In this document: positions 8,595 through 27,480 of the stretch, piece after piece
Numbering within the stretch: position 1 is the stretch's first letter
Layout of the letters: every line of letters starts with the position of its first letter
Assembly (NCBI RefSeq): GCF_000012285.1
Contig: NC_007181.1
Location: forward strand, 1,650,001-1,682,000
DNA from: Sulfolobus acidocaldarius DSM 639
GTDB taxonomy: Archaea; Thermoproteota; Thermoprotei_A; Sulfolobales; Sulfolobaceae
Direction of reading: 5' to 3'
DNA length: 32,000 nt
Made by a program: the position numbers and the translations under genes
Notes under the pieces: model-generated
Told to the model about the DNA's origin: nothing
Databases searched by the model: none
Seen by the model: the letters and a program-made list of their open reading frames with translations, nothing else

Positions 8595-8760
8595 TGATCC
8601 TTGCCTCCATCAATTTTACATTCTTATTTCCTGGTTTATAAATATTTTCTCTCCTTCATTGTCAATTTTGTGCCCTTAGGTACGGAAGGGAGTTTTAGGC
8701 TACACAGGGTAACCCTAAAACCATTTTACGTAAGGATACGGAAGGAAATAACATAATACC
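8595..8760 (-). promoter_or_regulatory. CRISPR leader 1 with TATA box (TTTATAAA, 8635-8642)
   Basis: This 166 bp directly abuts the last repeat and is the inverted copy of 20796-20961, with 7 differences. The palindromic TATA element TTTATAAA ends 41 nt from the first repeat in both copies, which predicts a transcription start about 20 nt before the first repeat. Confidence 0.85.
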
Positions 8761-9225
8761 ACTTCCATTTCTTTTTTTATGTTTATCCATGAATTTCTTC
8801 GATGTTCTCCTGGTAGACTAATAAGTGTATAATAAAATTCTATGAATTTTAGACAGTTTACTACTAGACTCAATGAAGCTCTTACTTTTAATTATCTAGG
8901 CATGTAATAAAATTAAAAATTTTTAAAGGTATATTTGTAACTTAAAAATTTTTATATATTACACTTTTTAACGCAGTGGACAAACTTCAATGAAGTAAGT
9001 GTAGAGGCTCACCTACTGTAACTGTTCATGAGATCCCAAGCCCTACAACATATTAAATTGTTCAAAAATAATTCCACATATGAATGTAAAGACAACTACG
9101 ACTGTGTCCTTATGACTAATAGTGGTACCACGGGATATGAACATAATGTACGTTATACCATTGCTCATTCTCCTATGTAGACCTAAACTAGAATAAGCAA
9201 ATTATCTATACTATCTTTCCGTTAG

Positions 9226-9612
9226 GTTTTAGTGTTTTAACTAAGTGACTAAATAAGAGGGGATCCTCGTAGGGAAATCTCAGAGAGTTTTAAGCAAGTG
9301 ACTAAGGGGCACCGATACTTTTCGTCCATACGAACTGATTTTTGTGATTTAAAAACTAATTCTCGACACGAAGTAGGTTATACTCAGTAGAGAGTTTAAC
9401 TAGTTAGTGTTTGTAGTAATGATGATAATAATATTCTTGTTGGCTTAATTAGTTCAAGACTCCTTTCAGGTAACATTAACAGTTTTGAAGCCTACCATGA
9501 GAGTTTTCAGCTAATTTTTCACGTCACCCTCTAATTATTCCTTGATCCTGTTGACTTGTCATAGTTAATGTATATTACAGTAAAAAGTAATGGAATAAGA
9601 AGGAAAACTCTC
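9226..9612. repeat. Decayed periodic direct-repeat series (possible fossil array or iterated binding sites)
   Basis: GTTTTAACTAAGTGACTAA (9234-9252) and GTTTTAAGCAAGTGACTAA (9287-9305) match at 17/19 positions and are 53 nt apart. The 9-mer GAGAGTTTT occurs at 9283 and 9499, GAGAGTTTA at 9390, and the inverted copy AAAACTCTC at 9604-9612 (spacings 107, 109, 105 nt). 9226-9249 matches the CRISPR repeat at 15/24 ungapped positions in the array-1 orientation. Confidence 0.5.
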
Positions 9613-9637
9613 TCCCCATGCTCCACACCGAGTAGGT

Positions 9638-9643
9638 AAAAAA
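9638..9643 (-). terminator. Candidate archaeal oligo-T terminator of the interference operon
   Basis: An A6 run on the plus strand (T6 on the minus strand) lies 35 nt downstream of the cas3' stop codon. Archaeal terminators are typically short T tracts. Confidence 0.35.
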
Positions 9644-9677
9644 TTCTCGTTGTACAGTTTACTATCTAGGAATTTTC

Positions 9678-11693: not shown

Positions 11694-11728
11694 CTCACGT
11701 ACATACGTCTACTATCACCTCACCATAA

Positions 11729-11757
11729 GTTGAAACGTGAAAATATACACGTTCAAC
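11729..11757 (-). promoter_or_regulatory. Imperfect palindrome around an AT core in the csc1-cas3' gap (internal promoter/operator or RNA hairpin)
   Basis: GTTGAAACGTG-aaaatata-CACGTTCAAC has 10-bp arms with one bulged A. The loop reads TATATTTT on the coding (minus) strand, about 50 nt upstream of the cas3' GTG. It lies in the only sizeable gap (110 nt) in an otherwise overlapping operon. Confidence 0.3.
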
Positions 11758-11803
11758 TGTAGTAGTCTTAAGACCCCTGCAGCGATTATTCATGAATGAC
11801 ACT

Positions 11804-12571
11804 CTACATCGCACTATTATACACCCCTTCTGGTATAGGTAAGCATATCTTAGACCCTCTTGTCACTATCTGAACGCACTCATCGAGGGTAGCCCAGCCT
11901 ATTACACCCTCCTCAATGTTAGGGGTCTCTATTAACTTGGAAGAGGACTTTATCTTATATCCGAACTCCTCTGCGTCTTTGATGTTTACGGGAATATTAG
12001 TCACTTCATCTTTGACCTTCTCTACCTTGAAGTCCTGTATCTCCTTCACATCGACCCTCATAATCCCCCACCTCTTTTTACCTATTCTTATCCACTTAGG
12101 AAGAGGGGGGTTTCCAACTACGATTAAATAAGTGAAAAAGACGCTCTCTGGGGCAAATGCCGTATAGCTTGTCAACCTGGGGTATACGTTCTTTATCCTC
12201 CCCCTGACAGGTAAAGCGTAGCTCCATGACTCTGAGGACATCAGGAAGGACATAGTCTTTATACGCTTAGGCATGAGAGGAAAAGCGTACAGGGAGTCCT
12301 CTTGACCTCTTTTAAACTTACTGATCATATCACTGATGGAGGTATATCTTAGACCTACCTTACCGGCATAAGTTTTTTCATGTAAAGATGGGATCACAAA
12401 GTACGCCTCAGCTGACTTTCCCATTAGCCCATACATTACCGGATAATTGTGTATGTATGGCAAAGGGTTTATGTAAGATCCCTTTGCCTGACCCTGTGAT
12501 ACTGCAGGTCTCACCTCTGTGGAAAATATTAGTACACCTTCTAAGGTGAACTGCGCCTCAAGAACTCTCAT
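11804..12571 (-). CDS. csc1: Csc1 (Cas5d) RAMP subunit of the type I-D complex
   Basis: 255 aa, with a 14-nt overlap with the upstream csc2. The size and position between the Cas7d-like gene and cas3' fit Csc1. The assignment rests mainly on context; I cannot run an HMM search. Confidence 0.7.
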   Translation of the reverse strand: MRVLEAQFTLEGVLIFSTEVRPAVSQGQAKGSYINPLPYIHNYPVMYGLMGKSAEAYFVIPSLHEKTYAGKVGLRYTSISDMISKFKRGQEDSLYAFPLMPKRIKTMSFLMSSESWSYALPVRGRIKNVYPRLTSYTAFAPESVFFTYLIVVGNPPLPKWIRIGKKRWGIMRVDVKEIQDFKVEKVKDEVTNIPVNIKDAEEFGYKIKSSSKLIETPNIEEGVIGWATLDECVQIVTRGSKICLPIPEGVYNSAM

Positions 12572-13613
12572 CTTTAGTCCCTTTCTTGGACTGTACGAAT
12601 AGCTCTATTGACTTCCTGAGGTTAATAGCGTCTTTCCAAGCCTCTAACATTATCTCATGGTCTATGTTACCGTTGTCTGTCAGTTTCTTTACCACTAGGT
12701 CTCCTAAGTCATCGAAAGTGTACACTAATCCCTCCTTACTGAAGTTCTTCACCCTCTCCCTTACCTTTGCGTTCACCTGGTCTACACTGTCCAGACCCTT
12801 AGCGCTGTTGAATAGGTCTAAGCCAGATGACATTTCATAAGGTGATAGTATTACAGCGGGTATCCTTATTTTTACTTTACCGAAGTCTGTGGTATTACCG
12901 CCTATCCTCGCAGTTGTCGCTAAGGACAAAACCAATACACTGAACTCAGCCGGTGTTACGTCCTTCATTGATACTTTACCAACAAATAAGGTACCACCCT
13001 TTACCAATGATAACCTGAATAGACTTCCAGTTCTAGTACCCTCAGTTTCTATAAATGTAGTCTTCGTCGCGTCATCAACTGCGTTAAATGTCCTGACCAC
13101 TACGCTCTTCTGCTCAGGAGTAGTAGCTATGAACAGGTCACCCTCAACTCTGCTCTTTAAGTTGTACTTAGCATCTTCAGCTACAGCAAAGCCGAACGTC
13201 ATACAGTTAGGACACTCTCTGCAAAGTCCACCCATTTTCTCTTCCTCCCTCTTAGCTGCCGATGTGGGTCTAAGCATACAGTTCCAAGGGTTGCTCTTTC
13301 CTCTTAGGGCGTCAATTTCACTTATGTGTTTGTCATAGTCTTTCCTCAATAACGCTAAAAGATTCCTCCTCCATGCCGACTGGATCTTATCATATAATAT
13401 GATTGGATATTTCTCACTTCCCAGTGTTGCTAGTGATATGTCTTCTCCTCCCTCGTGTCTTATCAATAGCTCATTTTCAGCTTGTAATGTGACATAGACA
13501 TTTACTACTCTTCCTCTTGGTATCACAGCGTTTGGGTCTTCTTTACTTAGGTTAGAAAAAAAATCAATGGCTTTATCTCCAAACAAATCCTTCACTAAAT
13601 CTTTACCTTTCAC
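12558..13613 (-). CDS. csc2: Csc2 (Cas7d) backbone subunit of the type I-D complex
   Basis: 351 aa, with a 4-nt overlap with cas10d. The Cys knuckle GGLCRECPNCMTFGFA is one I recognise as characteristic of the Csc2 family, and the length is typical of Cas7. Confidence 0.8.
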   Translation of the reverse strand: MKGKDLVKDLFGDKAIDFFSNLSKEDPNAVIPRGRVVNVYVTLQAENELLIRHEGGEDISLATLGSEKYPIILYDKIQSAWRRNLLALLRKDYDKHISEIDALRGKSNPWNCMLRPTSAAKREEEKMGGLCRECPNCMTFGFAVAEDAKYNLKSRVEGDLFIATTPEQKSVVVRTFNAVDDATKTTFIETEGTRTGSLFRLSLVKGGTLFVGKVSMKDVTPAEFSVLVLSLATTARIGGNTTDFGKVKIRIPAVILSPYEMSSGLDLFNSAKGLDSVDQVNAKVRERVKNFSKEGLVYTFDDLGDLVVKKLTDNGNIDHEIMLEAWKDAINLRKSIELFVQSKKGTKDESS

Positions 13614-16210
13614 TTTTTCTCACCACTCCTTTCGAAATATAAAAACTGTAAGTAGATCCAAGTAGTCAAGGAGTTTGCTATACGTATAGCAAGACTCCTA
13701 TCACTATTATTTTCTATATCGTATAACTTCTCAAAAATATCTCTAAGGGCAAAAAATAGTTTTGACTTGGACTCATCTCTTAATGTGTACTTGCTCTCTA
13801 GGGAACTGATTGCATCACTCACCGCCAAATTGATCCTGTCCTCCTTCTTTAGTGTTAGAGAAGAGGTCCTAAAGAATACGTCAACTCCGTCCCTGAAGAA
13901 ACCTACAACATCGTATTTGGAGGACCTTTTCTTTATTACATTGACTAGTTCTGAGGAAAGGAGATTTATTGAAGAAGATAAGGTTTCACCCATTTCACTC
14001 ACCTCTCCCATTACGAAATCTAAAAAATTTAAATAACGTAAAATTGAGTCGTAAAATTGTTTATTCTCGTCCATTACGGAACCTATTCCCAACCCAAACG
14101 CTATTACAAAAAGTGAGGGGTCAACGGCGTAGTACAAGTCAGATTCCTCCACCATGGAGTTAACGCAATTTTCAATATCACTACCCCTACAGATACTCAC
14201 AAGTGCCTCATACTTAGACTTATATGCTAACAATATGAGCAATGTTCTGTAGTTAACGTCTTTCCTCTCCTTACTGTACGTCATCCAGCTGTAGTTGAAG
14301 ACCGAGTCCACCTTGATCTTACCCTCTTCCATAGGGATGTTCATTATTGTAGACGAGATAAAGACAGGTGAAGCAAGATATACTATGGAAAGTAGTGGAA
14401 CATACCTCATGAGATCATTTACATCAGTTTTGCTTAACCTAGTGGAAATTCTGATATCCTTATCTGTGAAATGCCTATAGGGAACTAGTATCTTTGAACT
14501 CAAGTAACTGACTATTAAGTTTTGGTCTGACCCACTCTTGATATCACCACCGCTACTCTCGAATACATCATAGTAGTATGAGTTTTCCTCAATCATTTGA
14601 AACACATCTCCCTCGTAATCATTACCTACATTTATTGACTCCAAGAGCCTTATCGGTATACCAGGGTAAAAGGAAACTAGTGCGAAAGGTGGTTTTGAAA
14701 CTTTAGAGAGATAGCCTGCCTCAAAGTTACATATTGGGCAGATTTTCCAGTCATCTCTTAGCCTGTCTATGTCATCCATAGCCTTAGCCCTCGGGATGAA
14801 GATCTCTACTGTTCCACCCCTAGCGCCTATAGAGAATCCATATTGGGTAAATCTTGCACTCTCCTCATATATTGGCATACCACAAACTATACAGTAGGAC
14901 ATGGGTTCTTTGACAACCTTTGACAGATCATCTTCAATGTCTCCTCCGAAGGATTTCTTTACAAACGAGAGCAGATTTTGGTCTATAGTCTCTCTCTTCT
15001 GTCCATATAGTTTCTTTAAGACAGGGATTAACTTCTCTAATAATTCCTCAGACTTGAAGGTCTTTACATATTCTTTTGCCTTCCCTAAGCCCAGCTCTTT
15101 CTTGATCTGGTCTTTCTTATTGGACTTCTCAGCAAAGTACAATATTAAAGCCCAAGGCGCTACATCTTTGTACTCTGCCACCAGATCGTCAATAAGCTTC
15201 GAGACACTCTCTGGCTTAAGCAGACCAACTAAGTCCTCAAATGGCTTGCATATTTTTGAGGGGAAAATGGAATTGGGTATTTGTTTTACTCTCTCTTCGT
15301 CGTCTATAACTTCTGGTTTGAGTTCCAACTCTTTGAAAATATCTATGTTCTTTTGTAGGCATTTGTTCAAGTTTTCCTTCACATTGTTTAAATTGTCCTC
15401 ACTGCCAGAGCCATACATTATCTCTTCCATCACATTATACACTTTTGACAGAAATATCGGTTGGGAGTTCACCCTTGAGAGGTAAACTAACCCGTCGGTA
15501 TAGGAGATTAATGGGACAGCCTCTGACTTCAACTGTTCTACCAAACGCTTGGAGGCAATAAGTGTGAATAACCTGGGAGAAGAAGATAAAGTCCTCAACT
15601 CAATTCCGTACACACTTTTCAGAGCATTTATAGCCTGTAAATAGCTGGGAGAGTTCATGAAGTAATAGACATCGTTAACACTCCTGATATCGCTTATCAT
15701 CAACATGTCCCCTAACTTCACTGCTATCCATAGGGGTAGATGTAGAGTATCTGGTAGTGGACCCTCAGCAGTAAGGGCTATCCTCCTTATAAAGAGGTCA
15801 GGTTTAATATTGGGGTTCTTAGTTAGCTCAGCTATCCTTGTTATTATAGCCCTTGCTTCCTCCTCTTTTTTAGCCATTCTGTCCTCCTTATTTTGAACAG
15901 ACTCATCTTCACCGGGTAACTTATTCCAGTCATGGATAAACCCGCCAAAGAAGCAGAGTTGCTCCCATGGTATGGAATATGTTTTAGAAAGAGTATCAAG
16001 AGTCGTCTTACCTGTATCACTCATTTCATAGATTGTCCTACATATCTCGTAAGCTATAGTGCCAACTGATATTGTGTGGAACGCGAAGCTCTGTGGAGAA
16101 CGGACTTTAGCCTCTCTGACACCTTCCTTGAACGTGATGGAGCTCAAAGCAGTTTTCACTAAATCATTGTATTCCATAATAGTTGTATCCTTCTCCACAT
16201 ATAAAAACAT
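13610..16210 (-). CDS. cas10d: Cas10d (Csc3) large subunit with an N-terminal HD nuclease domain, the type I-D signature
   Basis: 866-aa ORF. HD motifs are present (FHTISVG ... GGFIHDWNK), as are Zn-ribbon-like Cys pairs (SYCIVCG ... KICPICN). The true start is probably ATG 16177 (MEYNDLV...), because a strong TATA box, TTTTTATAT (16199-16207, minus strand), lies inside the first 11 codons of the longest ORF, about 26 nt upstream of that ATG (leaderless mRNA). Confidence 0.85.
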   Translation of the reverse strand: MFLYVEKDTTIMEYNDLVKTALSSITFKEGVREAKVRSPQSFAFHTISVGTIAYEICRTIYEMSDTGKTTLDTLSKTYSIPWEQLCFFGGFIHDWNKLPGEDESVQNKEDRMAKKEEEARAIITRIAELTKNPNIKPDLFIRRIALTAEGPLPDTLHLPLWIAVKLGDMLMISDIRSVNDVYYFMNSPSYLQAINALKSVYGIELRTLSSSPRLFTLIASKRLVEQLKSEAVPLISYTDGLVYLSRVNSQPIFLSKVYNVMEEIMYGSGSEDNLNNVKENLNKCLQKNIDIFKELELKPEVIDDEERVKQIPNSIFPSKICKPFEDLVGLLKPESVSKLIDDLVAEYKDVAPWALILYFAEKSNKKDQIKKELGLGKAKEYVKTFKSEELLEKLIPVLKKLYGQKRETIDQNLLSFVKKSFGGDIEDDLSKVVKEPMSYCIVCGMPIYEESARFTQYGFSIGARGGTVEIFIPRAKAMDDIDRLRDDWKICPICNFEAGYLSKVSKPPFALVSFYPGIPIRLLESINVGNDYEGDVFQMIEENSYYYDVFESSGGDIKSGSDQNLIVSYLSSKILVPYRHFTDKDIRISTRLSKTDVNDLMRYVPLLSIVYLASPVFISSTIMNIPMEEGKIKVDSVFNYSWMTYSKERKDVNYRTLLILLAYKSKYEALVSICRGSDIENCVNSMVEESDLYYAVDPSLFVIAFGLGIGSVMDENKQFYDSILRYLNFLDFVMGEVSEMGETLSSSINLLSSELVNVIKKRSSKYDVVGFFRDGVDVFFRTSSLTLKKEDRINLAVSDAISSLESKYTLRDESKSKLFFALRDIFEKLYDIENNSDRSLAIRIANSLTTWIYLQFLYFERSGEKK
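16199..16207 (-). promoter_or_regulatory. TATA box of the interference operon (cas10d)
   Basis: TTTTTATAT on the minus strand is centred about 26 nt upstream of ATG 16177. This is the usual spacing for leaderless Sulfolobales transcripts. Confidence 0.55.
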
Positions 16211-16258
16211 TTCGCCGGGGAAAAGCCCTTACTAAATTGTAGGTTTTCATCAAAATAA

Positions 16259-16266
16259 TTTTTAAA
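16259..16266 (+). promoter_or_regulatory. TATA box of csa3(-cas6)
   Basis: TTTTTAAA is centred about 27 nt upstream of the csa3 ATG (16289). It sits in the 78-bp divergent intergenic region shared with cas10d. Confidence 0.55.
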
Positions 16267-16288
16267 CTTTGAAGTAATAATCTAATAC

Positions 16289-16954
16289 ATGAGTGTAACA
16301 AAAAAGGCATTAGCATTTACCATGGGTTTCACAATCGAGAACCTAGTGAAGGCTATCACAAACAGAGGCATTAACGAGAACGAACAGGTGGTACTGCTCT
16401 CTGTACTCTCAACAGACGAATTCAACAAGAGGAGGTCAGAGGAGGCTATAAGATTCGCCATTGACTATATATCAAAACTAGGGTTAAAATATTTTATTAA
16501 ATATATTGACATTAGTACTTCTTATGAAATGATAATCTCACAGATCCATGAGGTTTTGAGGGACTTCGATGAAGTGGAAATTTACATAATAGGAGGGATG
16601 AGAATATTAGGTCTAGCTTCATATTACTATTCCATTTTGATTTCTCCGTTCAAAAAGATAAGGACAATCTCGTTCACAGAGAACATGGACAACTCGTATG
16701 AACTAATTATAAGAGTACCTAAACCACCGGAGAGCAAAGAGATGATTGAGTTGATGTCTGAGCTGACCCAAATGAGGGAAATAAGGGAGGTCGCATCTAG
16801 GTTAAATAAGACTGTCTCTACTATATCTAAGCAACTGAGCAAAATAAGTGACCTAGTGGAGTGTACAGAAAAGAGACCGAAGATGTGCAAACTCAACGAA
16901 TTAGGGAAGATCCTTCTGGATGAGATGATCAGGCTTGACAGGAGAGGTAGATAA
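16289..16954 (+). CDS. csa3: Csa3-type CRISPR locus regulator (CARF-like N-domain plus winged HTH)
   Basis: 221 aa. The Rossmann-like N-terminal half carries the IIGGMR motif typical of Csa3/CARF proteins, and the C-terminal part is HTH-like (IREVASRLNKTVSTISKQLSKI). It is divergent from the interference operon and immediately upstream of cas6. Confidence 0.8.
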   Translation: MSVTKKALAFTMGFTIENLVKAITNRGINENEQVVLLSVLSTDEFNKRRSEEAIRFAIDYISKLGLKYFIKYIDISTSYEMIISQIHEVLRDFDEVEIYIIGGMRILGLASYYYSILISPFKKIRTISFTENMDNSYELIIRVPKPPESKEMIELMSELTQMREIREVASRLNKTVSTISKQLSKISDLVECTEKRPKMCKLNELGKILLDEMIRLDRRGR

Positions 16955-16955
16955 G

Positions 16956-17798
16956 ATGTATAAGCTTGTGAAGATTAAGGTAAATATACCTACCCCGTTT
17001 ATCACTAATGATTACACAGGGAAGTTTGTCAAGACTGTCCTCATAAATGCCAACCCCGACCTCCAAGAAGTTTTCGAAGGTAAGAAAAAAGTTCAGCCTA
17101 AACCTATGAGAGTTACTTCGCTGTTGGACGAAAACAACGAAGCGGTATACCCTAAGCATATAGTTAACCGATTTGAGATGGACCATAAGCCCAATCTACC
17201 TCCTAAGCCAATTACCATAAAGGGAAAGTTCTCCTTCTATTTGGGATATGATATGTCTCTGGAGCCAGAGGTGAGTAAGGTCATGACGTCTCTGTTCAGC
17301 GGTCTACAAATGAAGTACGGTGAGTTTAACGTAGAGCTTAAGGCTATTGAATATAATCAAGTTGAATTTGATAATTTCCCATCAGAGTTCTCGCAGATAA
17401 AGGTGAAACTGATTACACCATCTATGTTCAAGGACCCCTTTGAGAAGTTGGCTGATTTAGACCGAGTTAAGTATAGGAGATATCTCCCTTTCCCGGCGTT
17501 TATCTTTTCAACTAATGTATTTGAAATTTTCAGGGAGACGTACAAGAGGAATATAATAAGGTTATCGTACGGGCTGTTAGAGTCGCACAACAACCTTAAT
17601 ACTGTGAGGAAGGTCTGGTACTATTATGACGGGAAATGGTTACCGGGTGTAGTCGGTTATTTGAAGTTCTTTGTAAGGAAAGGATTGAGAAAGGAGGTGA
17701 TGAACATTTTTAGGGAGATATTCATTCACGCCAACATTATGGGGGTAGGGACAGGGAGAGCTGCTGGATTCGGGTTCGCAGAGATTACCGCTAAATGA
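16956..17798 (+). CDS. cas6: Cas6 pre-crRNA endoribonuclease
   Basis: The C-terminal glycine-rich loop GVGTGRAAGFGFAEI is the Cas6 hallmark (GhGxxxxxGhG). I prefer ATG 16956 (MYKLVKIKV), which is preceded by GGAGAGGT and starts 1 nt after the csa3 stop, over the track's TTG start at 16935. Confidence 0.9.
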   Translation: MYKLVKIKVNIPTPFITNDYTGKFVKTVLINANPDLQEVFEGKKKVQPKPMRVTSLLDENNEAVYPKHIVNRFEMDHKPNLPPKPITIKGKFSFYLGYDMSLEPEVSKVMTSLFSGLQMKYGEFNVELKAIEYNQVEFDNFPSEFSQIKVKLITPSMFKDPFEKLADLDRVKYRRYLPFPAFIFSTNVFEIFRETYKRNIIRLSYGLLESHNNLNTVRKVWYYYDGKWLPGVVGYLKFFVRKGLRKEVMNIFREIFIHANIMGVGTGRAAGFGFAEITAK

Positions 17799-18141
17799 GA
17801 CGAATGTTACAACGTCTTTCATTGAGAGATGGTGGTGTTTGAGTTAGTTGAATCTGTTTACAATTTAGATGCAAGGGTCAACGTGTTTTCGTCATGAAAA
17901 ATGTTATCTCCACGCTTTCATACACACATATTTTTTGTTGTTAGTCCTTCAGATTAGCATGAAAGTCAACGTAAGGAGAGGCAACTACTGTATGACGAAA
18001 AGGGAAATACGAGAGTAAAATCATTGGTAATGAGAGATGATTACTTAGTTGCAAAAAAGAGCACTTGATATAATTCATGTCTTGTTATCAATTTTGTCCA
18101 TTAATATTGCTTCTCTGAGGAAACTTGAGGTAATTTGTGGA

Positions 18142-18160
18142 TATAATAATCAAACTAAAA
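18142..18160 (+). repeat. Pseudo-repeat psi-a (shortened CRISPR-repeat derivative) upstream of cas2
   Basis: ATAATAATCAAACTAAAAC aligns to GTAATAACGACAAGAAACTAAAAC with 17 matches, 2 mismatches and 5 deleted nt. The last 10 nt (AAACTAAAAC) are identical to the repeat 3' end. It has the same orientation as array 2. Confidence 0.4.
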
Positions 18161-18305
18161 CAGTCTTGCATCATACTTGTTATGAGTCCTTTACGACCGT
18201 AAATTATATTTCCCACCAAAATATGGGTGTTCAAATTTTGATATTGGTCTACATTATGATGACAGATTTTTAAACATGAAAATTATACAATAATAATATT
18301 GTATT

Positions 18306-18596
18306 ATGTACGTGGTTGTGGCGTATGACATTTCAGATGAAAAGGTCAGAGGTAAGGTTAGGAGGTTACTACGCCGTTACGGTCTATCATTTATATCTAG
18401 ATCAGTCTATGCAGGACGACTCTCTTGGAATAGAGCCCTCCTCATATCGGAAAGAGTTGCTAAATATCTTGAAGAGAGAGACTCAGTGGTTATCGTCCCA
18501 GTCCAAAACGTTGACTTCTCAAGAACTCTTATCGTCACCCAGAATAAGATATCAAAGAACGAACTACAAATATACGTTGCCGGCGAGGATATTTGA
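18306..18596 (+). CDS. cas2: Cas2
   Basis: 96 aa. The N-terminus MYVVVAYDISDEKVRGKVRRLLRRYG is the classic Cas2 ferredoxin-fold start with the catalytic Asp. Confidence 0.9.
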   Translation: MYVVVAYDISDEKVRGKVRRLLRRYGLSFISRSVYAGRLSWNRALLISERVAKYLEERDSVVIVPVQNVDFSRTLIVTQNKISKNELQIYVAGEDI

Positions 18597-19086
18597 CGAC
18601 ATATCAGTGTGTAAACTCAGAGGTAAGTACAACCTTTACAAGTACTCACAGGAGAGGGATCTCAGGCTGAGCTATGAGCGTGAAACTGACATTAACTTTG
18701 GTGAAAAGAAGACCCTGGAGATCTACTTCAATTTTGGGGACTGGGCTAAGATAATAGGAGTACCTGATGGTTTAATAAGTAATTTAGCCATTGAGTTCAC
18801 CATTACTAGAAGTGAGGACTTCCCTAGATACCTGTTAATGAGGAGTGTGATATACTCTTACATGTGCATGCAAGACCACATAATATGCTCAACACTGATA
18901 GTGCCGACCACACCTCCGATATTTGAAGACCAACCACTTTTCGGCTACTTGGTAATACCCAACGGGAGGGTCTTGGACTACATTGCTGATCAACTACAAC
19001 GTATAGTTAACGGGAGAGTGGAGGGAAGAAGGAACAAATTCTGTCCATCTTGTATATACAAGAGGATCTGTCCGGAGTGGATGTAA
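18577..19086 (+). CDS. cas4: Cas4-like protein (four-Cys Fe-S pattern; nuclease motifs atypical)
   Basis: One N-terminal Cys (DISVCKLRGKY) plus the C-terminal CPSCIYKRIC (CX2CX5C) give the Cas4 four-Cys pattern. The start is uncertain: TTG 18577 overlaps cas2 by 20 nt, and the track ORF start at 18316 lies wholly inside cas2 in another frame. See the findings for the missing Lys and Gln motifs. Confidence 0.75.
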   Translation: MPARIFDDISVCKLRGKYNLYKYSQERDLRLSYERETDINFGEKKTLEIYFNFGDWAKIIGVPDGLISNLAIEFTITRSEDFPRYLLMRSVIYSYMCMQDHIICSTLIVPTTPPIFEDQPLFGYLVIPNGRVLDYIADQLQRIVNGRVEGRRNKFCPSCIYKRICPEWM

Positions 19087-19106
19087 AACACCCTGATGGT
19101 TATCCT

Positions 19107-19126
19107 GTAATTAAATCAAACTAAAC
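19107..19126 (+). repeat. Pseudo-repeat psi-c 20 nt downstream of the cas4 stop
   Basis: GTAATTAAATCAAACTAAAC begins with GTAAT and ends with ACTAAAC, like the CRISPR repeat. It shares the 12-mer AATCAAACTAAA and the same internal deletion with psi-a (18142-18160), and has the same orientation. Confidence 0.35.
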
Positions 19127-19822
19127 CTTAGGATTGGAGGGAAAAGCTAAAAATAACCTGAAAGACATTCTCTCATAAACGATAACCTGTTGATCAATAC
19201 GTGTCCATTAATTCCAGAGCACGTAGGAGGAAAGTATTACATCTTATTTTAATATCACCACTCCGCAAATAAGTAAGACGGTGTGTACGACGGGAGTATA
19301 CAGTACAAAATATACTAACAAAATGTCTTCCCTAGTCTAAAAGGTTCTTTCTCACAGATACTTGGACTGAAACAGTTACATCATCTATTACACACGTAAG
19401 ATGAAAGCGTCATCTGACCAAATTCATGTACAGGCAAACTCTCGTCCTTATCACAGTGTCCACCCTTTGATATCAGACCAACGTAAACTAGTAATATTGA
19501 GGAAAATTACCTAGGCGCAAGTTAGTATGAAGGCTATATATACAGGGCTCAGACTATTTTCCAACGCTCGGACCAAGTTATTATAAAGGAAGACTAAGGT
19601 TAAGACGGGGACGAGAAAGTGCTCATCCAACAAAATTGTTCTAAATCATTACTAAGGTAATAGACGTATATTATACGCGACTGATCCCGTAAGATTACTG
19701 TGAAGGGCTAACTGTACTACCTTTATAGAGAAACCCTTCCTATATCCACCCTCACTTCTCCTACCACACGAAGTCTTAAGTTAGCTAGACACGTTCATAC
19801 CTGAGCTTACCTCTAATTCATC

Positions 19823-20740
19823 TTATTGCTTAGGTTTGTATACGAATGGCTCAAAATCAATACCCTCTGCAATAAAGTTCTTAGTCTTCATCCCCATGGA
19901 GTAAATTTGTCCCCTCACACTCCTTTTCCCCTTGTGTAAGGTCTCATATAAGTGCTTCGTCAAGTGCCCTAACGACTCTTTAGACAGGTAACCTGAGTTG
20001 TCTAGTTTAAGCTTCACCTTTCTACTGACAGCAATCACTGAGTGTATTGCAACAGGCTTAAACATCTCAGAGAAATCATAGGTTAACGCTGTCCTTCCTG
20101 GGTACTCCACATGCATCAACCCTCCATAGGGATCGAGACCAGAGGCTATCAGGGAGTGAGTACATAGGGCGTAAATCACCGAGTACGCATAGTCCACTGC
20201 CCTGTTTATCTCATCCTCATTTCTAGGCTTCCTCCCGGTAAAAGAGGGAGGTAAGAATTTCCTCAGTTGCTCCCAGCACGCCTTACTCATCTCAGCCTCT
20301 ACTGACCTCAGCTCATCTATCGATTTCGTATTGTCGATCTGTTTCAACTCAAGGTCAATCTCCACTGGGACTTTCGTAAGGTACATAAAGTACTTTGCCA
20401 CGTTTATCATTCCTAATATTTTACCCTTTATGAACTTCCTGGCTAAATATAATTTCATATCATCACTTAGAGTATAAAACTTCCTCCTCACGTTCACTAA
20501 AGAGTTCAAGAACGGCGACACTAGGACCACATCGTTTCTCTTTCCGTGGACGAGAACTGGTATATTTAGACTGGAAAGGAACAAGATCACCTCTGATGTT
20601 AGCCTAACATTATTACCGACAATGACCACTAACTCTAGGTCCAGACTAGACACAGTTAAGTTCTTTCCAACGGACCATGTCATCTGAAGATCTGAGCCTT
20701 TCCTCATAATTGTAGCGTTTTTAATCACTAGAATGGACAT
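19823..20740 (-). CDS. cas1: Cas1 integrase
   Basis: 305 aa. The conserved C-terminal catalytic region is present: NRAVDYAYSVIY ... GLDPYGGLMH ... LTYDFSEMFKP (the Cas1 E/H/D motif region). Confidence 0.95.
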   Translation of the reverse strand: MSILVIKNATIMRKGSDLQMTWSVGKNLTVSSLDLELVVIVGNNVRLTSEVILFLSSLNIPVLVHGKRNDVVLVSPFLNSLVNVRRKFYTLSDDMKLYLARKFIKGKILGMINVAKYFMYLTKVPVEIDLELKQIDNTKSIDELRSVEAEMSKACWEQLRKFLPPSFTGRKPRNEDEINRAVDYAYSVIYALCTHSLIASGLDPYGGLMHVEYPGRTALTYDFSEMFKPVAIHSVIAVSRKVKLKLDNSGYLSKESLGHLTKHLYETLHKGKRSVRGQIYSMGMKTKNFIAEGIDFEPFVYKPKQ

Positions 20741-20760
20741 AATAGAAATTTTTCTCTCAA

Positions 20761-20770
20761 AAATAATAAA
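20761..20770 (-). promoter_or_regulatory. TATA box of cas1
   Basis: TTTATTATTT on the minus strand is centred about 25 nt upstream of the cas1 ATG (20740). It lies only about 26 bp from the outer boundary of leader 2. Confidence 0.5.
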
Positions 20771-20795
20771 CTTTTATCATAATTAATAAATTTTG

Positions 20796-20961
20796 GGTAT
20801 TATGTTATTTCCTTCCGTATCCTTACGTAAAATGGTTTTAGGGTTACCCTGTGTAGCCTAAAACTCCCTTCCGCACCCCAGGGAACAAAATTGACAATGA
20901 AGGAGAGAAAATATTTATAAACCAGGAAATAAGAATGTAAAATTGATGAAGCCAACGATCA
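20796..20961 (+). promoter_or_regulatory. CRISPR leader 2 with TATA box (TTTATAAA, 20914-20921)
   Basis: Inverted copy of 8595-8760 with 7 differences in 166 nt. It directly abuts the first repeat of array 2, and the TATA box ends 41 nt before the first repeat. Confidence 0.85.
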
Positions 20962-23900
20962 GTAATAACGACAAGAAACTAAAACATCTTCTCTGTCCTC
21001 TACTACTTTCTGCTCTTCTTTGTAATAACGACAAGAAACTAAAACTGAAAAGTTCATAAAAAAGTACCCTAACGTAGAACAGTAATAACGACAAGAAACT
21101 AAAACAATTTTATGATATCGCTTTTGTTCAAGGAAACATGTAATAACGACAAGAAACTAAAACAATTCTAAGTGCACAAGAAGGACTAGAAGAGGCAGGC
21201 CTGTAATAACGACAAGAAACTAAAACTAATGCCCAGTAACATAGATGCCTCCTTGATTATGTAATAACGACAAGAAACTAAAACAATTTGGATTGACGTC
21301 ACCTCAAGATCTATTACCTGTAATAACGACAAGAAACTAAAACATATTTAAGCCTTACTCTTTACATTAAAAGTAACAAGTAATAACGACAAGAAACTAA
21401 AACTCGACGTTAGTCTTAGATTTTTATCATTTTTAGGTGTAATAACGACAAGAAACTAAAACTTGTGCTCTTTAATGTCAAACAGTGTGATCTATTGTAA
21501 TAACGACAAGAAACTAAAACACAGTGCATGAAGTAGCATCATATGTCGTAAGTGAGTAATAACGACAAGAAACTAAAACTCTCTGGGTTAAGTGCAAAGA
21601 GCACTGGGATTACAAGTAATAACGACAAGAAACTAAAACCAACAAGGCTGAGAAGATAGCAAAGAAGCTAGTAGTAATAACGACAAGAAACTAAAACTAC
21701 AATAATTTCAGATTTCCAGTAAATGATACAAATTCGTAATAACGACAAGAAACTAAAACTTGTCATTAAACTGACAACTTTGTCTCTGACCCAAAGTAAT
21801 AACGACAAGAAACTAAAACAGTAGCGGTATACAAAAATGTATTTGTTGTGATAGTAATAACGACAAGAAACTAAAACTGGCTCACAGGCATTAATACCTG
21901 CAAAGCCTAGGGTAATAACGACAAGAAACTAAAACAAAAGTTTGCCAATTTAGGTGCTGTGCAGGAAGCATTTAGTAATAACGACAAGAAACTAAAACGA
22001 ATAATTGTAGATCAGCCATCAACTTCCACACGGTAATAACGACAAGAAACTAAAACAGAAAATGAGTAGTGAGATAAAGACAAAAAATAAGTGTAATAAC
22101 GACAAGAAACTAAAACAATTTCTATATAATCCAAGAGACACAGAGAGGTTTCTACGTAATAACGACAAGAAACTAAAACTACATTACTTTTAGAAATATA
22201 GTATGAGCGTAACATAGTAATAACGACAAGAAACTAAAACCAGTACACAAAGTGGATAGGAAAAGTCAACAATGTAATAACGACAAGAAACTAAAACATC
22301 GTATATTATATTGGGGCAGAAAAAATGAATGATGTAATAACGACAAGAAACTAAAACCAGGTTCAATTTCAGTAAATAATGGCATTACAATGTAATAACG
22401 ACAAGAAACTAAAACAACATCAGACTTTTGCACTTTTATTAGAAGGCTTTGGAGTAATAACGACAAGAAACTAAAACGATACATTGCATATATTGGCAAT
22501 CAGCAATACAAGTAATAACGACAAGAAACTAAAACACTATATATTGTTTGGAGCTTATCATAAACTTCATCGTAATAACGACAAGAAACTAAAACCTGAA
22601 TAGAGAGATGATAGAAGAAACGGTAAGTAGTAATAACGACAAGAAACTAAAACTCAGCCTCTAATTCTGCTGCAACTTCCATCAATTTCCTTGTAATAAC
22701 GACAAGAAACTAAAACATTAATTCCAAAGGACATTGAGAAGAAATTTGGCTTAAAGTAATAACGACAAGAAACTAAAACATATGAGCAACAGCAACTCAA
22801 ATCTTTATATGAAGTCGTAATAACGACAAGAAACTAAAACCACCAAAGAGTTTTTGTCCAAAGCCTTTTATGGAGTAATAACGACAAGAAACTAAAACCA
22901 GTCTCAATGTCTTTATGAGACAATTCTATATCCAAGTAATAACGACAAGAAACTAAAACGCACTTCTACTTGCTTAACGCTATAGCAAGCAAGAAGTAAT
23001 AACGACAAGAAACTAAAACGTTCATCAACCTCATGCTGAGTAAGACTATTAGTATGTGTAATAACGACAAGAAACTAAAACCTCGTATTCGTAAAAGCCC
23101 TCGTGGGTGGTGACGATGTAATAACGACAAGAAACTAAAAACTTTACAACTAATTTTTTCAGGAAAACAAATTGAAGTAATAACGACAAGAAACTAAAAC
23201 TATGTCTTAGATAGTTGAAAAAGCTAAAGCTTTTGTAATAACGACAAGAAACTAAAACGAATGTGTCCCCCTAGAGGTTTTCACCAAACAACCAGTAATA
23301 ACGACAAGAAACTAAAACAAAAAACCTTTAACCTCTATCGAATGCTGTCAAAAAGTAATAACGACAAGAAACTAAAACAACGTTACGACCACTACTACTC
23401 AGAAGAAGATAGTGTAATAACGACAAGAAACTAAAACGAGGGATGAAGGCAAATCAGTATCAGCAATAGTAGAGGTAATAACGACAAGAAACTAAAACGA
23501 AGTAGAACAGCTGTTTTTCAGGATTGAAATTATGTAATAACGACAAGAAACTAAAACAAGAGAATACTTTCTCGCCTCAGCAAGAATCGTATCAATGTAA
23601 TAACGACAAGAAACTAAAACGTATGTGGGAGAGCTTTATGAGTGGTAAGACACACGTAATAACGACAAGAAACTAAAACATGCAGGTACTATACTGAGCC
23701 TGATGAACAGCAGTAATAACGACAAGAAACTAAAACAAATTTAAGGAAAATGGAGTGTATGTATATAAATGTAATAACGACAAGAAACTAAAACCTCAAT
23801 TATTTTCAATGCTTTTTCTTTTTCGTTGTGTAATAACGACAAGAAACTAAAACACATCAGCACTTATGGATACTACGCCATGCTCATCTGTAATAACGAC

Positions 23901-25586
23901 AAGAAACTAAAACACTATTACTTTTGAAAATATGTAGATAAGACTGGTGTAATAACGACAAGAAACTAAAACTTACAGTTGTTCCGTTAGGAAGTATATA
24001 GTTACTGTAATAACGACAAGAAACTAAAACAAAATAATCATAAAACCCGAGCATTACGAAGAATTGAGTAATAATGACAAGAAACTAAAACTGTAAAGGA
24101 CTTCTTAAAAAGGTTAGAGGGGTTTCTCGTAATAATGACAAGAAACTAAAACGTAATTATTCTGATGGGTGCTATAATCTCGATGGCGTAATAACGACAA
24201 GAAACTAAAACAGCGATTAGTTTAGTCGAATTAGCTATTGCGACTTGTAATAACGACGAGAAACTAAAACATGGGATCCTGATAATTCGGCATCAGCACA
24301 ATTCGTAATAACGACAAGAAACTAAAACCTCTTCATTTGTCTCGTGAAATATAGGGTTTTTCAGTAATAACGACGAGAAACTAAAACATAGGGTAGTTCA
24401 CAAAGAGCCAGCCCTCGTCAACGTAATAACGACAAGAAACTAAAACCTTTACGTAGTAGTTATAGAGCTTCGTTACGTGCTGTAATAACGACAAGAAACT
24501 AAAACCTTGAACCATTGAACCTGCGATTGCAGGGATTAAGTATGTAATAACGACAAGAAACTAAAACGCTGACTGGGGGTGAGCCAGAAATGAAGACTGG
24601 AAGGTAATAACGACAAGAAACTAAAACTAAAATTAGTCTGCTGGCCAATTAAGAACAAACTCTGTAATAACGACAAGAAACTAAAACGTGCAACAGGGTG
24701 AAACATAGATGAGCACATTTTTGTAATAACGACAAGAAACTAAAACATTATGCTCATTATCTCTGATTTCGACCTTAAAGCGTAATAACGACAAGAAACT
24801 AAAACCTACATTGTCCTGAAGTCCTAACTTCTTTAATTCCTTGTAATAACGACAAGAAACTAAAACTTTTTATTTTCAGTAGCTATCACCATAGTAGCCC
24901 TAAAAGTAATAACGACAAGAAACTAAAACTACTCCCCAGGCTTACCCAGCAAGAAGAGGAAGCCTTGTAATAACGACAAGAAACTAAAACTAGGAGGAAA
25001 ATATAGGAATATAAAGATAGTACTAGTAATAACGACAAGAAACTAAAACTAGGAGGAAAATATAGGAATATAAAGATAGTACTAGTAATAACGACAAGAA
25101 ACTAAAACTAGGAGGAAAATATAGGAATATAAAGATAGTACTAGTAATAACGACAAGAAACTAAAACTAGGAGGAAAATATAGGAATATAAAGATAGTAC
25201 TAGTAATAACGACAAGAAACTAAAACTAGGAGGAAAATATAGGAATATAAAGATAGTACTAGTAATAACGACAAGAAACTAAAACCATTTTAGCTCAAGC
25301 ATCACCAGCATCAATTGAAAGGTAATAACGACAAGAAACTAAAACACCGTTCCGTAGATATTATTACTGTAACTCCCTCCCGTAATAACGACAAGAAACT
25401 AAAACACTGGGCTCCCCGTGATCACTCCAGGTCCTTATGTTGGTAATAACGACAAGAAACTAAAACGACGCTAAAAAGCAAGAACAACAATCACAACAAT
25501 CGGTAATAACGACAAGAAACTAAAACTTTCTTAGTGAATCCCATGTACGTATATCTAATTTAGTAATAACGACAAGAAACTAAAAC
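20962..25586 (+). CRISPR. CRISPR array 2: 78 repeats, 77 spacers
   Basis: I counted 78 copies of GTAATAACGACAAGAAACTAAAAC (first 20962-20985, last 25563-25586), with spacers of 33-39 nt. Variant repeats start at 23118 (extra A, or C24A), 24068 and 24129 (C8T), and 24247 and 24364 (A12G). Confidence 0.99.
24967..25261 (+). repeat. Five tandem identical repeat-spacer units (59 nt x 5)
   Basis: The spacer TAGGAGGAAAATATAGGAATATAAAGATAGTACTA occurs five times in a row: 24991-25025, 25050-25084, 25109-25143, 25168-25202 and 25227-25261. Confidence 0.98.
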
Positions 25587-27456: not shown

Positions 27457-27480
27457 GTAATAACGACAAGAGAAAAATAC
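27457..27480 (+). repeat. Orphan degenerate CRISPR repeat
   Basis: GTAATAACGACAAGAGAAAAATAC matches the array repeat at 20/24 positions (the first 15 nt are identical) and has the same orientation as array 2. It lies 1870 nt after the last canonical repeat and 9 nt after the vapC stop. Confidence 0.85.

What the first reader, a model, noticed from the sequence alone, without database searches (positions are those of the whole stretch)
18137..19126. cas2-cas4 is flanked by two same-orientation pseudo-repeats; the upstream one has a crRNA-like layout
psi-a (18142-18160, ATAATAATCAAACTAAAAC) keeps the exact last 10 nt of the CRISPR repeat, which is the part that becomes the crRNA 5' handle. psi-c (19107-19126, GTAATTAAATCAAACTAAAC) starts with GTAAT and ends like the repeat. 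Both share the 12-mer AATCAAACTAAA and the same internal 3-nt deletion relative to the repeat, so they look related to each other. psi-a is followed by a 38-nt stretch, within the observed spacer-length range. After that comes a weak third repeat-like 24-mer (18199-18222, GTAAATTATATTTCCCACCAAAAT, 11/24 matches, GTAA start and AAAA-rich end). This repeat-spacer-repeat layout resembles crRNA-like regulatory RNAs, such as the CreA antitoxin RNAs described inside haloarchaeal type I-B cas loci. It sits in a 507-nt ORF-free gap, 145 nt before cas2. The elements could instead be relics of recombination between the arrays and the adaptation module. Statistical support is modest: I estimate about a 3% chance for the 10-mer alone in the noncoding DNA of this AT-rich window.
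Basis: partly seen in the sequence, partly recalled or inferred. Interest (0 to 1): 0.6.

Follow-up and report, generated by a model that had tools for sequence, protein, structure and literature searches.

The report
Two decayed CRISPR repeats flanking cas2-cas4
Two short, shortened copies of the CRISPR repeat sit on either side of the cas2-cas4 genes of this Sulfolobus acidocaldarius-type I-D locus; they are probably real repeat remnants, but nothing I could test shows that they make a regulatory crRNA-like RNA.

Summary
The window holds a type I-D CRISPR-cas cassette between two arrays that share a 24-nt repeat.

**Observation.** They are 5 and 4 nt shorter than the repeat, not 3.
- Generic alignment scores and ungapped identity (14/24 each) are at chance level.
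- Three specific features are rare. psi-a has an intact terminal 10-mer (P about 0.02-0.04 in the cassette's noncoding DNA). Both elements have a collinear two-block layout. They also share a 13/14 core (about 0.005 expected).

**crRNA-like layout.** This is not supported.
- The "third repeat" (11/24) is chance (P = 0.42).
- The pseudo-spacer has no seed-plus-PAM target above background.
- There is no Rfam hit and no RNA structure signal.
- In the closest syntenic locus (G030, cas2-cas4 85% identical) the leaders are about 90% conserved, but both gaps share no homology with the window.

**Support for a real repeat origin.**
- An in-array deletion variant in G030 has the same block layout as psi-a.
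- One metagenomic relative carries a near-perfect lone sense-strand repeat 103 nt upstream of cas2.
- S. solfataricus ncRNA60 is a published precedent.

**Verdict.** These are most likely decayed repeat derivatives of unknown function, if any.

The parts
18143..18161 (+). psi-a, a shortened repeat derivative (ATAATAATCAAACTAAAAC). It keeps repeat positions 2-7 (18144-18149) and the exact last 10 nt (18152-18161), which include the 8-nt crRNA 5' handle. The middle is 5 nt shorter than in the repeat.
   Evidence: It is the only genomic terminal-10-mer site that also has a 5' block. It is 16/19 identical in layout to the in-array deletion variant at L016:13-31.
19107..19126 (+). psi-c, a shortened repeat derivative (GTAATTAAATCAAACTAAAC), 20 nt after the cas4 stop. 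It keeps the first 5 nt of the repeat and AAACTAAA-C, with one A missing from the handle.
   Evidence: 7 such two-block sites genome-wide; 0.009 expected in the cassette's noncoding DNA. Alone it scores at chance by generic alignment.
18148..18159 (+). 12-mer AATCAAACTAAA, shared exactly with 19114-19125. It includes the non-repeat junction bases TC, which suggests that psi-a and psi-c are copies of one degenerate variant.
   Evidence: The 12-mer has 4 copies in the genome. Six sites lie within one edit of the 14-mer, and two of them are psi-a and psi-c.
18162..18198 (+). 37-nt pseudo-spacer after psi-a. No target was found.
   Evidence: Seed matches (at least 11/14) occur at background rate. 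None in the cassette has a GTN, CCN or TCN PAM.
18199..18222 (+). Proposed third repeat-like 24-mer. It is at chance level and is not counted as part of the element.
   Evidence: 11/24 identity; P = 0.42 for at least 11/24 within the spacer-length range.
16935..17798 (+). cas6. It ends 344 nt upstream of psi-a on the same strand.
   Evidence: Pfam CRISPR_Cas6, Cas6_N.
18306..18596 (+). cas2.
   Evidence: Pfam CRISPR_Cas2, E = 8.8e-15.
18577..19086 (+). cas4-like gene (169 aa as called in public assemblies).
18267..18275 (+). T5 run and TATA-like TTTTTAAAC between psi-a and cas2. One public short contig ends at 18273 and another starts at 18288. This probably marks the end of transcription through the gap and the cas2 promoter (inferred).
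   Evidence: The type of the sequencing runs was not verified.

Best explanation
psi-a and probably psi-c are genuine but decayed derivatives of the locus's own CRISPR repeat. They lie in fast-evolving noncoding DNA on either side of cas2-cas4.

**Most likely history (inferred).** A repeat lost its middle 4-5 nt by slippage between short internal direct repeats, which is the kind of deletion seen inside a real array in a relative. Copies of this variant then ended up outside the arrays, through array decay, repeat-mediated recombination or ectopic integration. They have since drifted.

**Present function.** They most likely have no function of their own. psi-a lies in DNA that may be transcribed as a long tail of the csa3-cas6 transcript, and cas2 appears to have its own promoter about 120 nt further down.

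**Shown versus inferred.**
- Shown: the sequence relationships, their rarity, and the lack of conservation, of a target and of a second repeat.
- Inferred: the origin and the lack of function.
For: 1. Rarity of the specific features: the terminal 10-mer has P 0.017-0.037, psi-a has a unique two-block layout, and psi-c's layout is expected 0.009 times.
2. The shared 13/14 core includes non-repeat junction bases, with about 0.005 expected. This points to a common degenerate ancestor.
3. The second repeat of G030's array B is a 19-nt deletion variant with the same block layout as psi-a, 16/19 identical.
4. Relatives carry lone or decayed repeats in their cas intergenic DNA:
   - a 22/24 lone inverted repeat at L012:2679-2702;
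   - a degenerate copy in G030's own cas6-cas2 gap at L012:11669-11692;
   - a 22/24 lone repeat 103 nt upstream of cas2 in L022/L023.
5. Lack of constraint: the window and G030 share 85% identical cas2-cas4 and 88-91% identical leaders, but no homology in the cas6-cas2 and cas4-cas1 gaps.
6. There is no second repeat, no target, no structure and no Rfam family.
7. The window holds another stranded half-repeat at 27457-27471.
Against: - The changes in psi-a are not scattered as simple decay would predict. The 5' block and the whole cleavage-site and handle region are intact, and only the middle is lost. Selection for Cas6 binding and cleavage would look the same.
- psi-a lies just downstream of cas6 on the same strand, like the Cas6-processed ncRNA60 of S. 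solfataricus (PMC4041471).
- Repeat-like elements in cas loci are often functional (PMC10120712).
- All S. acidocaldarius assemblies retrieved are identical here, so drift within the species cannot be judged.
- The two-block statistics were chosen after seeing the data. By generic scores the matches are at chance level.
Confidence: 0.45

Rival explanations
1. **Functional Cas6 substrate or cr-like RNA.** psi-a is transcribed, either from its own weak promoter or as part of the cas6 3' tail. Cas6 cuts it 8 nt before its end. The product carries a crRNA 5' handle, is loaded into an effector, and acts as a regulatory or decoy guide (ncRNA60-, CreR- or CreA-like). psi-c could be a second cleavage site that defines the 3' end of cas2-cas4 transcripts.
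For: - The 8-nt handle, the cleavage-site context and repeat positions 2-7 are intact.
- The position is 344 nt downstream of cas6 on the same strand.
- A precedent exists in a related genus: ncRNA60, which lies next to cas6-3, is cut by it and is found in the Csm complex (PMC4041471).
- A near-perfect lone sense repeat with an upstream TATA-like box lies 103 nt before cas2 in L022/L023.
- One public contig joins cas6 to the gap up to 18273.
- Repeat-like sequences are enriched in cas loci, including I-D (PMC10120712).
Against: - There is no second repeat above chance.
- There is no seed-plus-PAM target.
- The element is not conserved in the closest syntenic locus, although the leaders are.
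- No structure signal was found.
- The 5-nt shorter linker may prevent Cas6 from reaching the cleavage site.
- psi-c has lost one A of the handle.
- One contig starts at 18288, which suggests that cas2 mRNA starts at its own promoter and not at psi-a.
- No RNA data could be examined.
Confidence: 0.2
2. **Chance resemblance.** Both elements are A-rich strings in AT-rich noncoding DNA that happen to resemble the A-rich 3' half of the repeat.
For: - Local alignment scores of 20 and 16 are ordinary, with about 0.5 such hits expected in the cassette's noncoding DNA.
- Identity of 14/24 is expected about 8 times there.
- An exact 12-mer pair in a 2-kb AT-rich stretch is not rare in itself (one search lists 13 direct-repeat families of 10 nt or more).
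- For any 10-mer of the repeat, P is 0.16.
- The sharper statistics were post hoc.
Against: - The a priori test (intact terminal 10-mer) gives P 0.017-0.037.
- Its joint occurrence with a second element within one edit of the same 14-mer has about 0.005 expected.
- The two-block matches bring the joint chance to roughly 1e-4 to 2e-3 before any look-elsewhere correction.
- The same deletion layout occurs in a true array repeat.
Confidence: 0.25
3. **Another cis-element.** The shared motif, on one strand or the other, is a promoter, a terminator or a protein-binding site. Examples are an AT-rich TATA-like box on the + strand, a U-rich terminator (GUUUUAGUUUGAUU) for - strand transcripts, or a site for Csa3 or a repeat-binding protein.
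For: - Both elements are embedded in TATA-like strings: ATATAATAA and GTAATTAAA.
- Their reverse complements are T-rich.
- csa3 is encoded in the cassette.
- Public short contigs indicate that the cas4-cas1 gap is covered continuously, and that coverage changes near 18273-18288.
Against: - The motif is absent from the cas1, cas2-proximal and cas10d/csa3 promoter regions (within two edits, only psi-a and psi-c in the window).
- The other genomic copies are partly inside genes and show no common context.
- Contigs run through psi-c without a break.
- The motif is not conserved in G030.
Confidence: 0.1

Closest known systems
Standalone repeat-like sequences and mini-arrays in CRISPR-cas loci (Shmakov et al. 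2023, PMC10120712), including the CreR cas-regulating RNAs
   Same: They are degenerate copies of the locus's own repeat in intergenic DNA of a class 1 cas cassette. I-D loci are among those reported as enriched.
   Different: - Mini-arrays have two repeat-like units around a spacer whose seed matches a nearby promoter. Here the second unit is at chance level and no target was found.
- In I-D the reported enrichment is next to cas3, not next to cas2-cas4.
CreTA (CreA antitoxin RNA and CreT toxin) of haloarchaeal I-B and other type I systems (PMC8501985, PMC9458426)
   Same: A degenerate repeat inside a cas cassette keeps the handle-coding 3' end, and it lies close to cas6.
   Different: There is no psi-R2, no adjacent toxin-like small gene whose promoter matches the pseudo-spacer next to a PAM, no conservation in the sister locus, and no data on processing.
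ncRNA60 of Saccharolobus (Sulfolobus) solfataricus (Sokolowski et al. 2014, PMC4041471)
   Same: It is a single degenerate repeat-like sequence beside a cas6 gene in a member of the Sulfolobales. Its function is unknown. It is the best analogue for how psi-a could work: Cas6 cleavage that leaves a crRNA-like 5' handle.
   Different: ncRNA60 was seen as an abundant RNA in Csm complexes and was cut by Cas6-3 in vitro. For psi-a no RNA evidence is available. psi-a also has a 5-nt internal deletion, whereas ncRNA60's precursor is full length with substitutions.
Degenerate terminal or stranded repeats and decayed arrays
   Same: They have partial identity to the repeat and fast-evolving surroundings. 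Similar debris occurs in relatives and elsewhere in this window (27457-27471).
   Different: The two elements are not at an array end. They are 2.8 and 1.8 kb from array B, separated from it by genes, and they share a derived junction.

Membership tests
CreTA (CreA antitoxin RNA) | Two degenerate repeats (psi-R1, psi-R2) flank a spacer-like segment of normal length | tested here: not met
   psi-R1 (psi-a) is present. The proposed psi-R2 (18199-18222) matches 11/24, with P = 0.42 by chance within the spacer range.
CreTA (CreA antitoxin RNA) | The pseudo-spacer seed is complementary to the promoter of an adjacent toxin gene, next to a PAM | tested here: not met
   Seed matches of at least 11/14 occur at background rate. 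Those in the cassette lack GTN, CCN or TCN PAMs. No credible small toxin gene was identified.
CreTA (CreA antitoxin RNA) | Cas6-dependent processing into a stable RNA bound by Cascade | not testable with these tools
The stored public TSS and TPS tables stop before 1.66 Mb.
Regulatory mini-array / CreR-type cr-like RNA (Shmakov 2023) | A repeat-like sequence in cas-locus intergenic DNA, more similar to the repeat than background allows | tested here: inconclusive
   This is met for the terminal 10-mer (P 0.017-0.037) and for the post hoc two-block tests. It is not met by generic alignment or by ungapped identity.
Regulatory mini-array / CreR-type cr-like RNA (Shmakov 2023) | Conservation of the element, and of a partial spacer match to a cas promoter, across related loci | tested here: not met
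   G030's gaps share no homology with the window, although its leaders are 88-91% identical. Only one of about eight distinct lineages (L022/L023) has a clear lone sense-strand repeat upstream of cas2.
ncRNA60-like Cas6-processed non-CRISPR RNA | A solitary repeat-like sequence close to a cas6 gene, with the cleavage site and handle preserved | tested here: met
   psi-a lies 344 nt downstream of cas6 on the same strand. The last 10 nt of the repeat are exact.
ncRNA60-like Cas6-processed non-CRISPR RNA | An abundant RNA with a handle-like 5' end that is cleaved by the cognate Cas6 | not testable with these tools
   No read data were available. The only indirect hint is a public contig that joins cas6 to the gap.
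Decayed or ectopic CRISPR repeat (relic) | Sequence derivable from the locus's own repeat by ordinary mutations | tested here: met
   psi-a is the repeat minus 5 internal nt plus 2-3 substitutions. The same deletion layout is seen in a true array repeat of G030 (L016:13-31). The C8T variant of the repeat exists in array B.
Decayed or ectopic CRISPR repeat (relic) | No sign of purifying selection on the element or its surroundings | tested here: met
   The gaps are not alignable between the window and G030. A caveat is that there is no within-species variation to test.

The most novel reading that the evidence does not exclude
psi-a, and perhaps psi-c, are live Cas6 recognition sites. Cas6 cuts transcripts that run from cas6 into the gap at 18153/18154. 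This yields a crRNA-like RNA with a full 8-nt handle but a non-spacer body. That RNA is loaded into the I-D or a type III effector as a regulatory or decoy guide, or it couples expression of the adaptation genes cas2-cas4 to Cas6 activity. The lone sense-strand repeat upstream of cas2 in the metagenomic relative L022/L023 would be the undecayed form of the same device. This would be the first cr-like regulatory RNA tied to the adaptation module of a crenarchaeal type I-D system, and it would be in a genetically tractable model organism.
Probability: 0.15. Interest if true: 0.65.

Novelty: new member of a known kind. Interest (0 to 1): 0.3.

Why it matters
**If the elements are relics.** They document how CRISPR repeats shed internal bases and get stranded among cas genes. 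They also show that the cas6-cas2 and cas4-cas1 gaps of this model locus are unconstrained DNA. This is useful for annotation and for people who engineer the endogenous I-D system of S. acidocaldarius.

**If psi-a is a live Cas6 substrate.** It would extend cr-like regulatory RNAs (CreA, CreR, ncRNA60) to the adaptation module of type I-D. The organism already has knock-outs, dRNA-seq, Term-seq and small-RNA data, so the question can be settled quickly.

Tried and rejected
- **RNA evidence.** The look-up of sequencing runs and read laying were both unavailable. The published TSS, TPS and annotation tables for NC_007181.1 (PMC12817955, PMC10663502) are stored truncated and stop before 1.66 Mb. 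Other S. acidocaldarius papers did not mention the region.
- **Rfam.** Nothing relevant was found at a permissive threshold across 16000-21000.
- **RNA folding.** Both elements were folded on both strands. All z-scores lay between -0.6 and +0.8.
- **Coding potential.** The gaps hold only short, low-quality ORFs. The 74-aa ORF has no Pfam hit and is not called in public annotations.
- **Pseudo-spacer target search.** Only background was found. The spacer-like stretch after psi-c only resembles cas4 codons at 19016-19027, outside the seed (reasoned).
- **Second repeat family.** Similarity to the genome's second repeat family (ending GGGATTGAAAG) was not found.
- **Alignment with relatives.** The gaps were aligned with G030 and with ten upstream regions. 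Only the cas2-proximal promoter is alignable in some relatives.
- **Population variation.** All S. acidocaldarius assemblies and contigs retrieved are 100% identical here.
- **Intermediate relatives.** None was found: Cas4 homologues are 100%, about 80% or at most 52% identical.
- **Apparent hit in L027.** A hit 104 nt upstream of cas2 was rejected because it lies inside the cas6 coding end (by reading the sequence).
Full report
**Setting.** The window is positions 1,650,001-1,682,000 of a single-contig genome of 2,225,959 bp. Its coordinates fit the Sulfolobus acidocaldarius DSM 639 reference used in published tables. It holds a type I-D cassette between two arrays that share the repeat GTAATAACGACAAGAAACTAAAAC:
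- array A: 669-8594, - strand, 133 repeats
- cas3: 9678-11693 (-)
- csc1/cas5d: 11804-12571 (-)
- csc2/cas7d: 12558-13613 (-)
- cas10d: 13610-16210 (-)
- csa3: 16289-16954 (+)
- cas6: 16935-17798 (+)
- a 507-nt gap
- cas2: 18306-18596 (+)
- cas4-like gene: 18577-19086 (+)
- a 736-nt gap
- cas1: 19823-20740 (-)
- leader B, then array B: 20962-25586, + strand, 78 repeats

**The observation.**
- Both are on the + strand, which is the strand of cas2-cas4 and of array B.
- psi-a keeps repeat positions 2-7 (TAATAA) and the exact last 10 nt. psi-c keeps the first 5 nt (GTAAT) and AAACTAAA-C.
- They share the exact 12-mer AATCAAACTAAA.
- They are 5 and 4 nt shorter than the repeat, not 3.
- 144 nt separate psi-a from the cas2 start codon.
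- The gap is not strictly ORF-free. A 74-aa TTG ORF spans psi-a. It has no Pfam match, and no gene is called there in the NCBI or Logan records.

**Is it more than chance?** The answer depends on the yardstick.

Generic measures give no signal:
- A gapped local alignment scan of the whole genome gives psi-a a score of 20. More than 400 places outside the arrays score as well or better. About 0.5 such hits are therefore expected in the 2735 nt of noncoding DNA of the cassette.
- psi-c scores 16 (shuffle p about 0.4).
- As ungapped 24-mers both match 14/24. About 0.15% of genomic 24-mers reach this value, so roughly eight are expected in the cassette's noncoding DNA.

Specific measures are rarer:
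This 10-mer occurs only 14 times outside the arrays. That gives P about 0.017 by genome density and 0.037 by first-order Markov simulation. For any 10-mer of the repeat, P is 0.16.
- Of the 14 sites, only psi-a also has six or more bases of the repeat's 5' part within 20 nt upstream. The per-site chance is 0.04-0.06.
- The psi-c layout (GTAAT, 1-12 nt, AAACTAAA) has seven genomic sites, so 0.009 are expected in the cassette's noncoding DNA.
- Only six genomic sites lie within one edit of psi-a's 14-mer. psi-a and psi-c are two of them, and about 0.005 are expected in the cassette.

The two-block statistics and the one-edit 14-mer count (the last three items above) were designed after seeing the data, so I treat them as supportive only. 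Taken together, I judge that both elements are probably true repeat derivatives (about 0.75) and that pure chance keeps about 0.25.

**The crRNA-like layout.**
- The proposed downstream repeat (18199-18222) matches 11/24. At least one 24-mer that good turns up within the allowed spacer range 42% of the time.
- The 37-nt pseudo-spacer has only background-level seed matches in the genome. The few inside the cassette lack GTN, CCN or TCN PAMs.
- No Rfam family matches the region.
- No fold on either strand is more stable than shuffles.

The repeat-spacer-repeat reading therefore rests on psi-a alone.

**Relatives.** Few exist. The Cas4-like protein has homologues at about 80% identity (genome G030) and otherwise at 52% or less.
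- G030 is fully syntenic: cas3 to cas10d, csa3, cas6, gap, cas2, cas4, gap, cas1, array. Its repeat differs at two positions.
- cas2-cas4 are 85% identical at the DNA level, and the two leaders are 88-91% identical. The cas6-cas2 and cas4-cas1 gaps share no detectable homology with the window. psi-a and psi-c are thus not conserved, and the DNA around them is unconstrained.
- G030 has its own repeat debris:
  - a 22/24 lone repeat, inverted relative to the adjacent array, between leader A and the cas3 3' end (L012:2679-2702);
  - a degenerate copy in its own cas6-cas2 gap (L012:11669-11692, genome-density p about 0.04);
  - inside array B, a second repeat that has lost five internal bases (L016:13-31).
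- That in-array variant, ATACTAACGAAACTAAAAC, has the same 19-nt block layout as psi-a and is 16/19 identical. One of the three differences is the species-specific repeat difference. This shows that the psi-a type of deletion arises in real repeats.
- Among the metagenomic loci, one lineage (L022/L023) carries a 22/24 lone repeat on the sense strand 103 nt upstream of cas2, opposite in orientation to the neighbouring array. A TATA-like box lies about 30 nt upstream, and an 8-nt direct repeat (TAAGTATG) lies on both sides.
- The other lineages (L025, L026/L030, L028/L029, G045) show nothing convincing there.
- In G102 and L027, cas6 abuts cas2 with no gap. In G102, L028 and L029 an array lies directly downstream of cas4 in the same orientation.
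- Repeats next to cas2-cas4 are thus common in this family, but a conserved psi-a-like device is not.

**Indirect hints on transcription.** The only hints are public short contigs that carry the cas proteins:
- one spans window 9021-18273 and ends at a T5 run;
- one spans 18288-20724 and starts 18 nt before the cas2 ATG;
- three start inside cas2 and end at the cas1 start;
- one spans 9048-18963.

DNA assemblies give contigs of about 12 kb between the arrays, so these shorter contigs are probably from RNA-seq runs. I could not verify that. If they are, the gap that holds psi-a is covered continuously with cas6, cas2 has its own promoter near 18267-18288, and the cas4-cas1 gap, including psi-c, is transcribed without a break.

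**What it most likely is.**
- I favour decayed repeat derivatives without a function of their own (0.45). The evidence is the rarity of the specific features, the shared derived junction, the in-array precedent for the deletion, the abundance of such debris in relatives and in this window (27457-27471), and the absence of conservation, of a partner repeat and of a target.
- The main rival is a live Cas6 substrate (0.2). psi-a keeps the two parts that a Cas6 of the wrap-around type would need, it lies just downstream of cas6, and S. solfataricus ncRNA60 shows that such a solitary degenerate repeat beside a cas6 gene can be cut by Cas6 and loaded into an effector (PMC4041471). Repeat-like elements are also enriched, and often regulatory, in cas loci, including I-D (PMC10120712).
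- Chance (0.25) and another cis-element such as a TATA-like box or a U-rich terminator on the opposite strand (0.1) remain possible.

**Novelty and score.** Standalone degenerate repeats in cas loci are a known kind of feature, and this would be a new instance. The evidence for function is thin, and the elements are confined to one species, whose available genomes are identical in this region. Interest is modest (0.3). It would rise to about 0.65 if Cas6-dependent processing at 18154 were shown, which existing public data sets for this model organism could decide.

Noticed in passing
L012:2679-2702 (G030), with weaker copies near L012:2738-2761 and 2790-2812: A near-perfect (22/24) solitary repeat lies between leader A and the cas3 3' end of the syntenic relative. 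It is inverted relative to the adjacent array and is followed by weaker repeat-like 24-mers. It looks like a decayed or regulatory mini-array next to cas3, the position where I-D repeat-like elements are reported to be enriched.
   Followed up: partly
L023:2582-2605 (also L022:~847-870): Metagenomic relatives carry a 22/24 lone repeat on the sense strand 103 nt upstream of cas2. A TATA-like box (TTTTTATA) lies about 30 nt upstream. The 8-mer TAAGTATG is repeated directly on both sides, and flanking inverted repeats could enclose the repeat in a hairpin loop.
   Followed up: partly
L002:2271-2471 (G030), and window 19016, 19075, 19132: In G030, four copies of a 25-nt unit (GAATGGACATAACTGATTTTTAACT, 84-96% identical) are spaced 57-61 nt apart. 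The first copy is the last codons of cas4. The window has a faint counterpart: GAGTGGAGGGAA-like 12-mers spaced 59 and 57 nt apart across the cas4 end. The period is CRISPR-like, but the sequence is unrelated to the repeat.
   Followed up: no
L012:11634-12150 (G030 cas6-cas2 gap): At least nine degenerate copies of a motif of about 15 nt (GGGGATAGAAAG / CATAGARGGTACTGG) recur every 50-63 nt (with one 108-nt interval) and fill the gap that corresponds to the psi-a gap. The origin is unknown. No clear match to the I-A/III-type repeat family was found.
   Followed up: partly
L016:13-31 (G030 array B, second repeat): A repeat inside an otherwise regular array has lost five internal bases (ATACTAACGAAACTAAAAC), and its preceding spacer is about 46 nt long. 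It shows that this deletion arises in situ.
   Followed up: yes
window 18316-19086 and homologues in G030, G045, G102: The cas4 reading frame stays open backwards across all of cas2 in four genomes (open frames of 250-275 aa). Some public gene calls report a single 253-aa product instead of cas2 plus cas4.
   Followed up: no
window 9021-9048 and 18273-18288: Public short contigs (probably RNA-seq assemblies, unverified) repeatedly begin about 630-650 nt beyond the cas3 stop, and they break between 18273 and 18288. This suggests a long cas3 3' tail or a non-coding RNA behind leader A, and a cas2 promoter at about 18267-18288.
   Followed up: partly
window 8608-8700 and 20856-20950 versus L012:2030-2122 and 16154-16248: The leader cores are 88-91% identical between the window and G030, whereas all the other long noncoding tracts of the cassette are not alignable. 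This is a clean internal control for constraint.
   Followed up: yes
window 24068-24091 and 24129-24152: Two array B repeats carry the C8T variant (GTAATAATGAC...). psi-a has the same T at that position.
   Followed up: no
window 27457-27471: A lone half-repeat (GTAATAACGACAAGA) lies 1.9 kb beyond array B. It was already followed up by an earlier agent of this scan.
   Followed up: no
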